Below are positions 37,147 through 39,089 of a DNA stretch of 64,000 nt, one piece after another; position 1 is the first letter of the stretch; every line of letters starts with the position of its first letter. The notes beneath the pieces are model-generated. The model was not told the origin of the DNA. It worked only from the letters and a program-made list of their open reading frames with translations, and made no database searches. A program made the translations under genes and the position numbers. Origin of the DNA: the human T2T-CHM13v2.0 reference genome, Homo sapiens; the NCBI RefSeq assembly GCF_009914755.1, contig NC_060936.1; one strand, written 5' to 3'.

Positions 37147-38450
37147 TTCACCTCTTTCTTTCATTAAATATCTATTACGTGAATGTGATATAATTTAACC
37201 ACTTTCTTTTCTTGCATAGACCAATATTGTGAAAATCTTTCCAATGTTTCCTTAATCAAAAAGAATTATGGGCCGGGCGCAGTAGCTCACACCTGTAATC
37301 CCAGCACTTTAGGAGGCCAAGGCAGGCAGATTACCTGAGGTCAGGAGTTCAAGACCAGCCTCGCCAACATGGTGAAACCCCGTCTCTACTAAAAATACAA
37401 AAAATTGCCGGGCGTGGTGGTGGTTGCCTGTAATCCCAGCTACTAAGGAGGCTGAGGCAGGAGAATTGCTTGAACCCATGAGGTGGAGGTTGCAGTGAGC
37501 CGAGATCTTGCCACTGCACTCCAGCCTAGGCGAAAGGTCAAGACTCCGTCTCAAAAAAAAAAAAAAAAAAAAAAAAAAAGAATTACATAACTCCACTTTC
37601 CAGGTTAGGAGAATTCCTAACTTACACTGGTTCTCATTAAAATAAAAACTACCTCTTCTTTTTCCTTTTTTTCTTTCTGCCAGCAGCCTCCAGCTTCTTT
37701 TGTTTTTAGCCCTTATTTTGTATCGAAAATGTTCATTTCTCTTTTTTATTTTTATTTTTTTTAAAACAGTCTTTGTTGCCCAGGCTGGAATGCAGCTGTG
37801 CAATCTTGGCTCACTGCAACCTCCACCTCCCAGGTGCAAGCGATCCTTCCATCTCCGCGCCTGAGTAGCTGGGACCATAGGCACACACCATTATGCCGGG
37901 CTAATTTGTTACTTTATTTTATTTTTTTGAGACGGAGTCTCGCTCTGTCGCCCAGGCTGGAGTGCAGTGGCGCAATCTCGGCTCACTGCAAGCTCCGCCT
38001 CCCGGGTTCAAGCCATTCTCCTGCCTCAGCCTCCCGAGTAGCTGGGACTACAGGCGTGCGCCGCCACGCCCGGCTAATTTTTTTTTTTTTTTTTTTTTTT
38101 TTGTATTTTTAGTAGAGACGGAGTTTCACCATGTTAGCCAGGATGGTCTTGCTCTCCTGACCTCATGATCCGCCCGCCTCGGCCTCCCAAAGTGCTGAGA
38201 TTACAGGCGTAAGCCACTGCGTATGCCTGGCTAATTTTTTTAATTTTTGTAAAGACAGGGTTTCACCATTTTGGCGAGGCTGGCGCGAACTCCTGGGCTT
38301 AAGCAATTCGCCCACCTTGGCTTCCCGAAGTGTTGGGATTACAGGTGTGAGACATGGTGCCTGGCCAGGAATAAAAGTTAGTAGTATTCTTTCATTCAAA
38401 GTACATCCGTATTATTAATATTTTATAATTTCTGTCATTTTTTCCTGCAG

Positions 38451-38537
38451 GTGAAGACCTGGTTCCAGAACCAGAGAATGAAATCTAAGAGGTGGCAGAA
38501 AAACAACTGGCTGAAGAATAGCAATGGTGTGACGCAG
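38451..38537 (+). CDS. NANOGP1: NANOGP1 exon 3 (homeodomain recognition helix [16 protein letters not shown])
   Basis: tttcctgcag| acceptor and CAG|GTAACA donor, 87 nt. Confidence 0.93.
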
Positions 38538-38672
38538 GTAACAGGAAACTTCATTCTGTTCTTTCCTTTCAGTGATCTTTCAATCTTGTCCATCCCTGAA
38601 ACACACAACTCCAGTCACAGACAGTTCTGGTTGTCCTTGTACCCTTTCTGTTAATCTCTCCTTCTCTTTGAG

Positions 38673-39089
38673 AAGGCCTCAGCACCTACCTACCCCAGCC
38701 TCTACTCTTCCTACCACCAGGGATGCCTGGTGAACCCGACTGGGAACCTTCCAATGTGGAGCAACCAGACCTGGAACAATTCAACCTGGAGCAACCAGAC
38801 CCAGAACATCCAGTCCTGGAGCAACCACTCCTGGAACACTCAGACCTGGTGCACCCAATCCTGGAACAATCAGGCCTGGAACAGTCCCTTCTATAACTGT
38901 GGAGAGGAATCTCTGCAGTCCTGCATGCAGTTCCAGCCAAATTCTCCTGCCAGTGACTTGCAGGCTGCCTTGGAAGCTGCTGGGGAAGGCCTTAATGTAA
39001 TACAGCAGACCACTAGGTATTTTAGTACTCCACAAACCATGGATTTATTCCTAAACTACTCCATGAACATGCAACCTGAAGACGTGTGA
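38673..39089 (+). CDS. NANOGP1: NANOGP1 exon 4 CDS (CD1, tryptophan repeat, CD2); alternative in-frame acceptor at 38721
   Basis: [34 protein letters not shown]...MQPEDV*. The proximal acceptor is GAG rather than CAG. CAG|GGATGC lies 48 nt downstream. Confidence 0.9.

What the first reader, a model, noticed from the sequence alone, without database searches (positions are those of the whole stretch)
37147..38743. Possible recurrent inversion switch: recombination between the arms would flip exon 3 out of NANOGP1
Seen: near-identical inverted repeats flank a 1.6 kb spacer that carries the homeodomain recognition-helix exon and the exon-4 acceptors. Established: NAHR between inverted repeats inverts the spacer. 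Inference: the inverted allele would be NANOGP1-null on the + strand and would build an exon 3-exon 4 cassette on the minus strand. Short reads would largely miss it.
Basis: inference. Interest (0 to 1): 0.72.

Follow-up and report, generated by a model that had tools for sequence, protein, structure and literature searches.

The report
Backwards exon-4 copy inside NANOGP1 intron
The human embryo gene NANOGP1 carries a backwards copy of its own last exon inside intron 2, likely tens of millions of years old and likely kept near-identical by gene conversion; it could let the exon between the copies flip, but no flipped version turned up in the inversion lists that could be checked.

Summary
The inverted repeat is real and specific to NANOGP1. 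Intron 2 holds a 1.08-kb reversed copy (36066-37146) of exon 4, the 3' UTR and downstream DNA (38744-40098); NANOG has no such copy. The outer parts differ at 40 of 501 columns, the inner part at 2 of 565. The copy is therefore likely old (about 25-30 My) and its inner part recently homogenised, most simply by gene conversion between the arms. A second conversion tract makes NANOGP1 exon 3 to exon 4 almost identical to NANOG. Nothing shows that this happens: none of the 8 chr12 rows of the T2T inversion table lies here, the pair appears to be absent from a 612-region catalogue, and only 6 of 319 unpredicted inverted duplication pairs proved polymorphic there. Ape sequences could not be examined. 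Verdict: a new member of a known kind, not a demonstrated switch. The firmer consequences are ambiguous read mapping of exon 4 and a predicted ~690-bp pre-mRNA duplex.

The parts
36066..37146 (-). Left arm: reversed copy of the exon-4 body, 3' UTR and downstream DNA, inserted in intron 2 in place of about 18 bp of NANOG-orthologous intron
36582..37146 (-). Inner, homogenised part of the left arm (2 mismatches in 565 against the right arm)
36800..37146 (-). Exon-4 coding copy on the minus strand: open frame to the natural stop, no splice acceptor of its own
36097..36388 (-). Alu shared by both arms, with its 16-bp target duplication, absent from NANOG (inserted before the inverted copy was made)
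35664..35926 (+). NANOGP1 exon 2 (ends in phase 0)
   Evidence: hub annotation
37147..38743 (+). Spacer, 1597 bp, collinear with NANOG intron 2, exon 3, intron 3 and the start of exon 4; the segment that a crossover would invert
38451..38537 (+). Exon 3, 87 nt, homeodomain recognition helix
38660..38743 (+). Exon-4 acceptors (exon starts 38673 and 38721); the first has GAG where NANOG has CAG
38744..40098 (+). Right arm: exon-4 body, 3' UTR and downstream DNA (the source of the copy)
38962..39308 (+). Longest perfect arm-to-arm run, 347 bp
39433..39721 (+). Alu private to the right arm, with a short target duplication (inserted after the copy); AluY-like label recalled
39790..40067 (+). Right-arm copy of the shared Alu with target duplication
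38435..39101 (+). Tract nearly identical to NANOG (5 differences in 667 bp, intron 3 included): likely NANOG-NANOGP1 conversion

Best explanation
NANOGP1 intron 2 carries a reversed copy of the gene's own exon 4 and 3' end, likely made once by a templated insertion about 25-30 million years ago, whose inner 565 bp has likely been kept near-identical to exon 4 by non-crossover gene conversion, while crossovers that would flip exon 3 are likely rare and have not been observed. Shown: the copy, its absence from NANOG, collinear intron on both sides with about 18 bp lost, 3-4 bp junction microhomology, and the identity step between inner and outer parts. Inferred order: NANOG duplication, shared Alu, inverted copy, private Alu in the right arm, conversion of the inner part within the last few My. 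Inferred mechanism: a break in one arm is repaired from the other arm 1.6 kb away, or from the sister chromatid. Resolved without crossover this copies sequence; resolved with crossover it inverts the spacer and would remove homeodomain helix 3 from the sense transcript. NANOG exon 4 joins the same exchange network over its coding part.
For: Inner 2 of 565 against outer 40 of 501 mismatches; non-Alu outer 10 of 206 (Fisher p 6e-5, boundary chosen after looking). With the breakpoint optimised, 0 of 10,000 permutations reach the observed step, and 40 of 10,000 when Alu, tail and CpG sites are removed. Polarised on older retrocopies, the inner UTR has 7 derived sites shared by both arms and not NANOG and 0 private ones; the outer part has 1-2 shared and 10 arm-to-arm differences (p 7e-4). 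NANOG shows a single copy and a collinear intron. Junction microhomology and intact Alu target duplications. Scaling to 67 of 900 flank differences = 40 My gives about 26 My (outer) and about 2 My (inner) (40 My from PMC10110494). No inverted allele among the 8 chr12 rows of the T2T table; base rate 6 of 319.
Against: One haplotype cannot separate plain conversion from homogenisation during past inversion polymorphism; both predict an identical inner part. No ape or second human sequence was available (no relatives). The dates rest on 10 and 2 differences (95% intervals 2.3-8.9% and 0.04-1.3%) and on a flank that may itself have been converted. For the coding part NANOG could be the donor to both arms (1 difference in 347 to each). 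This pair was apparently never genotyped in the 612-region study, so its absence there is weak evidence.
Confidence: 0.72

Rival explanations
1. One reading: the spacer toggles by NAHR and both orientations segregate in humans or differ among apes; the inverted allele knocks out the NANOGP1 homeodomain.
For: 347-bp perfect run and 98.6% identity over 691 bp; recent exchange between the arms; 11 of 16 IR-mediated inversions showed recurrence in PMC3961182; validated inversions exist with IRs down to 140 bp; NANOGP1 is not required for naive pluripotency, so a null allele could drift.
Against: Not among the 8 chr12 rows of Table S1 of PMC10150506, nor among the 30 of 37 chr12 places shown, which include CHM13-GRCh38 orientation differences. 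No hg38 coordinate starting 789 among 612 candidates merged from studies of 195 people plus paired-end predictions (hg38 position estimated from a recalled offset). Only 6 of 319 unpredicted inverted pairs were polymorphic. Great apes reported intact and rhesus full length. No exact match to the recalled PRDM9 motif in arms or spacer.
Confidence: 0.12
2. The arm is a selected RNA element: in the pre-mRNA it pairs with exon 4 and the UTR, loops out exon 3, and tunes splicing, editing, nuclear retention or small-RNA output; conversion keeps the stem perfect.
For: In the predicted fold of 3,551 nt, 684 of 691 left-arm bases pair with the right arm; the duplex alone scores -1377 kcal/mol. The stem starts 23 nt after the 38721 acceptor. 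NANOGP1 is highly expressed in epiblast and naive cells.
Against: Reported isoforms differ only between exons 3 and 4, all keep the homeobox, and protein is made; no exon-3 skipping or antisense transcript in the passages seen of PMC2938211. None of the 25 papers listed for the dsRNA/editing search holds the word NANOGP1. Conversion explains the identity without selection.
Confidence: 0.1
3. The inner identity is not conversion but a recent second copying event over an older insertion, or an assembly or polishing effect in this reference.
For: The step is sharp, at 39308/39309, and only one assembly was seen.
Against: Both arms keep one private substitution each inside the tract, and the outer parts are cleanly diverged. 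The whole structure spans only 4 kb. A second copying event from the other arm amounts to conversion in effect.
Confidence: 0.06

Closest known systems
Human IR-mediated (NAHR) inversions, e.g. HsInv0389 and the InvFEST/GeONTIpe set (PMC3961182, PMC13629690)
   Same: Two highly identical inverted repeats flank a short segment; crossover would invert it; short reads are poorly suited.
   Different: Those are defined by both orientations being observed; none was found here. The arms are a gene's own exon rather than a segmental duplication or LINE pair, and are short (0.69 kb core).
Arm-to-arm gene conversion in primate X/Y palindromes (PMC8981503; search listing and abstract start only)
   Same: Old inverted copies kept above 99% identical by conversion.
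   Different: Autosomal, about 1 kb rather than large palindromes, only the inner half is homogenised, and one arm is an intronic antisense exon fragment.
Templated inverted insertions / interspersed inverted duplications (277 events, median 284 bp, in PMC12350158)
   Same: A nearby segment copied in reverse into a site with a small deletion and short microhomology.
   Different: Ancient and present in the reference rather than a polymorphic insertion call; 1.08 kb long.
Inverted-repeat pseudogene hairpins that yield endo-siRNAs in mouse oocytes (recalled, not checked here)
   Same: A gene duplicate whose transcript can fold into long dsRNA matching the parent gene.
   Different: Here the stem exists only in unspliced RNA, the host makes a protein, and no small-RNA or editing data were seen.

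Membership tests
Polymorphic or recurrent IR-mediated inversion | Inverted repeats over 90% identical flanking a unique segment | tested here: met
   98.6% over 691 bp, 1597-bp spacer
Polymorphic or recurrent IR-mediated inversion | Uninterrupted identity of a few hundred bp (threshold recalled) | tested here: met
   347-bp perfect run
Polymorphic or recurrent IR-mediated inversion | Both orientations observed in humans | tested here: inconclusive
   Not listed in two catalogues; two further supplements were cut and showed no inversion list; no direct genotyping was possible
Polymorphic or recurrent IR-mediated inversion | Orientation differs among primates, or alleles lie on several haplotype backgrounds | not testable with these tools
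   No ape or population sequence is held; PMC10110494 reports intact great-ape genes, which is indirect evidence against
Inverted repeat under arm-to-arm gene conversion | Tract of near-identity inside older, diverged arms | tested here: met
   2 of 565 against 40 of 501; permutation 0 and 40 of 10,000
Inverted repeat under arm-to-arm gene conversion | Derived alleles shared by both arms and lack of private alleles in the tract | tested here: met
   7 shared and 0 private in the inner UTR
Inverted repeat under arm-to-arm gene conversion | Arms cluster by species rather than by position across primates | not testable with these tools
   No ape sequence available
Templated inverted insertion | Collinear target on both sides, small loss, short microhomology at both junctions | tested here: met
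   About 18 bp lost and 3-4 bp microhomology, read through later substitutions
Hairpin RNA source (editing or endo-siRNA) | Both arms on one transcript and able to pair | tested here: met
   Both arms lie inside the annotated gene; 684 of 691 bases pair in the predicted fold
Hairpin RNA source (editing or endo-siRNA) | Editing clusters or 21-22 nt RNAs from both strands of the stem | not testable with these tools
   No RNA data held; no NANOGP1 paper among the 25 listed

The most novel reading that the evidence does not exclude
The intronic arm is a built-in antisense module: in epiblast and naive stem cells NANOGP1 pre-mRNA folds into a ~690-bp duplex whose coding part matches NANOG at 346 of 347 bases, so edited or diced products damp NANOG itself. 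Three-way gene conversion (NANOG, exon 4, intronic arm) keeps the match, and an occasional crossover turns the gene into a homeodomain-null allele.
Probability: 0.08. Interest if true: 0.85.

Novelty: new member of a known kind. Interest (0 to 1): 0.42.

Why it matters
NANOGP1 is reported to be protein-coding and highly expressed in human epiblast and naive stem cells (PMC10110494). The reversed exon copy was not mentioned in the five NANOG/NANOGP1 papers searched for it. It has consequences whether or not the spacer ever flips. About half of exon-4 reads map equally well to intron 2 (313 of 613 100-mers), so quality filters would undercount the 3' end. Guides or primers for exon 4 would hit NANOGP1 twice in opposite orientation, and two cuts could delete or invert exon 3. 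The near-identity of exon 3 to exon 4 with NANOG, intron 3 included, suggests conversion and weakens the argument that coding conservation alone shows selection on NANOGP1. If an inverted allele did segregate, it would be a hidden knockout of a human embryo transcription factor.

Tried and rejected
Chance or Alu-pair origin: rejected; the core is unique NANOG-family sequence and the other inverted pairs listed in the region are 75-87% alike. Repeat inherited from NANOG: rejected; NANOG has one copy. Retrocopy insertion: rejected; the copy starts inside exon 4, has no exon junction or poly(A) tail, and includes an Alu found only at NANOGP1. NANOG as sole donor of the inner identity: rejected for the UTR part (12 differences in 218 to NANOG, 0 between arms), not excluded for the coding part. 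Functional minus-strand gene in the inverted isomer: no exons 1-2, no annotated promoter. PRDM9 motif (recalled): 16 exact matches in the window, none in 36066-40098. Dating the Alus by best hit in the window was uninformative. The supplements of PMC12350169 and PMC12350158 were cut when stored and showed no inversion list for this place; PMC11794170 supplements list no NANOG or NANOGP1 row: all three inconclusive. Earlier scan findings were not available.

Full report
Observation. The repeat is in the sequence. The repeat finder reports arms 36551-37146 and 38744-39339 (596 nt, 99%) 1597 nt apart; self-BLAST gives 691 bp at 98.6% as the best non-self hit in the window and an outer block of 409 bp at 87.5%. 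A gapped alignment joins these into one pair, about 36066-37146 and 38744-40098, with an Alu at 39433-39721 in the right arm only. The spacer holds exon 3 (87 nt, phase 0) and the acceptors that open exon 4 at 38673 and 38721. A genome search with the arm gives 14 matches: the two arms, two pieces at NANOG and ten dispersed pieces taken to be retrocopies.

Origin. NANOG has one copy only. NANOG intron 2 is collinear with NANOGP1 intron 2 on both sides of the left arm, which replaces about 18 bp. Both junctions show 3-4 bp of microhomology, read through later substitutions. This fits a templated inverted insertion (inference). The junctions are the same in both recombination isomers, so they cannot tell which orientation came first. 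An Alu with an intact 16-bp target duplication lies in both arms and not in NANOG, and a second Alu lies only in the right arm. The order is therefore NANOG duplication (about 40 Mya per PMC10110494), shared Alu, inverted copy, private Alu.

Identity step. Between the arms, the inner 565 columns have 2 mismatches and the outer 501 have 40; the non-Alu outer part has 10 of 206. With the breakpoint free, 0 of 10,000 permutations match the step; with Alu, tail and CpG sites removed, 40 of 10,000 do. Using four older retrocopies to polarise, the inner UTR has 7 derived sites common to both arms and absent from NANOG, and no private site; the outer part has 1-2 shared sites and 10 arm-to-arm differences (p 7e-4). 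Sites where NANOG has a gap or the outgroups disagree were left out of the polarised table. Crude scaling gives about 26 My for the copy and about 2 My for the last homogenisation, with wide intervals. A reciprocal crossover alone swaps differences and does not erase them, so non-reciprocal transfer is needed (established reasoning). The arms have therefore recombined with each other, but the sequence does not say whether a crossover ever came with it.

NANOG is part of the network. From 38435 to 39101 NANOGP1 differs from NANOG at 5 of 667 bases, against 67 of 900 in an upstream block. Intron 3 differs at 2 of 135 (p 0.013 against 37 of 543 in intron 1). PMC3484675 notes an exon-3-region variant found only in NANOG, NANOGP1 and NANOGP8 although it arose after older retrocopies, as conversion predicts. 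Over the 347 coding bases in the arms, NANOG differs from each arm at one site.

What an inversion would do. In the in-silico isomer exon 3 and both acceptors lie on the minus strand. No acceptor with at least 15 pyrimidines in 20 remains in the right arm; weak in-frame AGs exist, so the best case is a protein without helix 3. The minus strand gains an open exon 3-exon 4 frame, but without exons 1-2 or an annotated promoter.

Is it seen? Table S1 of PMC10150506 (T2T coordinates, 44 sample columns) has 8 chr12 rows, none near 7.91 Mb, and one is a 1,672-bp assembly-based call; the orientation-difference rows shown (30 of 37 chr12 places) begin at 12.4 Mb. In PMC13629690 no coordinate among 612 candidates starts with 789; the hg38 position is my estimate from a recalled offset, roughly consistent with the axis of Fig. 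S6 in PMC10110494. The pair was thus apparently neither predicted nor tested there. In that study 6 of 319 unpredicted inverted pairs were polymorphic in 54 people. The supplements of PMC12350169 and PMC12350158 were cut and gave no inversion list, so the largest callsets remain unseen and could hold a rare allele. PMC10110494 reports intact genes in great apes and a full-length gene in rhesus, which indirectly implies the standard orientation in those assemblies; crab-eating macaque keeps only exons 1-2. Against my reading: 11 of 16 IR-mediated inversions were recurrent in PMC3961182, and the 347-bp perfect run is adequate substrate.

RNA level. Both arms lie in one transcript. The predicted fold pairs 684 of 691 left-arm bases with the right arm and leaves exon 3 and the acceptors in the loop (no shuffle control was run, the complementarity is direct). 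Published isoforms keep exon 3 and protein is made, so the stem does not block splicing. Editing or small RNAs are untested. For mapping, 313 of 613 exon-4 100-mers and 437 of 670 43-mers occur exactly in the left arm; PMC10110494 filtered at MAPQ 20.

Print record. The stem 'inver' does not occur in the main text of PMC10110494, PMC1457002, PMC2938211 or PMC3484675, nor in the two supplement files of the first; its single use in PMC3894937 concerns reptiles and birds. Searches for NANOGP1 with inverted (11 of 12 listed), inversion (5) and gene conversion (3) gave no title on this feature; most of those papers were seen only as listings. Subscription papers, figures and SV databases were not searchable, so 'not described' is limited to these searches.

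What I saw of each paper. PMC10110494: abstract, sections 8, 9, 33, 38, term search, supplement passages. PMC13629690: parts 1-3 of 8, passages, table searches. PMC10150506: listing and table searches. PMC12350169 and PMC11794170: listing and supplement searches. PMC12350158: passages and one supplement search. PMC1457002, PMC3484675, PMC3894937, PMC2938211, PMC3961182, PMC13755911, PMC9318709, PMC12975141: passages. PMC8981503: listing only. Recalled, from no call: Alu subfamily labels, the name NANOGP4 for the chr7 retrocopy, the PRDM9 motif, the hg38 offset, the minimal-homology threshold and the mouse hairpin pseudogenes.

Verdict. An old templated inverted copy under gene conversion, confidence 0.72. 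A segregating or toggling inversion, 0.12. New member of a known kind; interest 0.42.

Noticed in passing
window 38435-39101: NANOGP1 differs from NANOG at only 5 of 667 bases here, intron 3 included, against about 7% in flanks: a likely NANOG-NANOGP1 conversion tract that confounds arguments for selection from coding identity.
   Followed up: partly
L003 (G000:C7:29350688-29351375) against window 39115, 39183, 39296, 39298: The chr7 retrocopy shares 4 of the 7 NANOGP1-derived UTR alleles but has NANOG-like or ancestral states at other sites; it may be a retrocopy of NANOGP1 rather than NANOG, or record a mosaic history.
   Followed up: partly
window 38721-39432: 313 of 613 exon-4 100-mers occur exactly in the intron-2 arm and 182 of 613 in NANOG, so the 3' exon is poorly mappable.
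   Followed up: partly
window 38670: The canonical exon-4 acceptor has G at position -3 where NANOG has C, which may explain the alternative acceptors reported for NANOGP1.
   Followed up: no
window 38961: The right arm carries a private C (Gln) where the left arm and NANOG have G (Glu); a candidate site for conversion-derived polymorphism.
   Followed up: no
window 37391-37576 and 37905-38090: An inverted Alu pair (84% over 186 nt) lies inside the spacer, upstream of exon 3.
   Followed up: no
window 2626-3705 and 21652-22676: A direct repeat of about 1.08 kb at 81% identity within SLC2A14 introns; not identified.
   Followed up: no
PMC10110494 Fig. S5 legend; window 35927-40098: Crab-eating macaque retains only exons 1-2 of NANOGP1; the lost part is the part bracketed by the repeat in human, so the repeat may have promoted that deletion. 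Untested.
   Followed up: no
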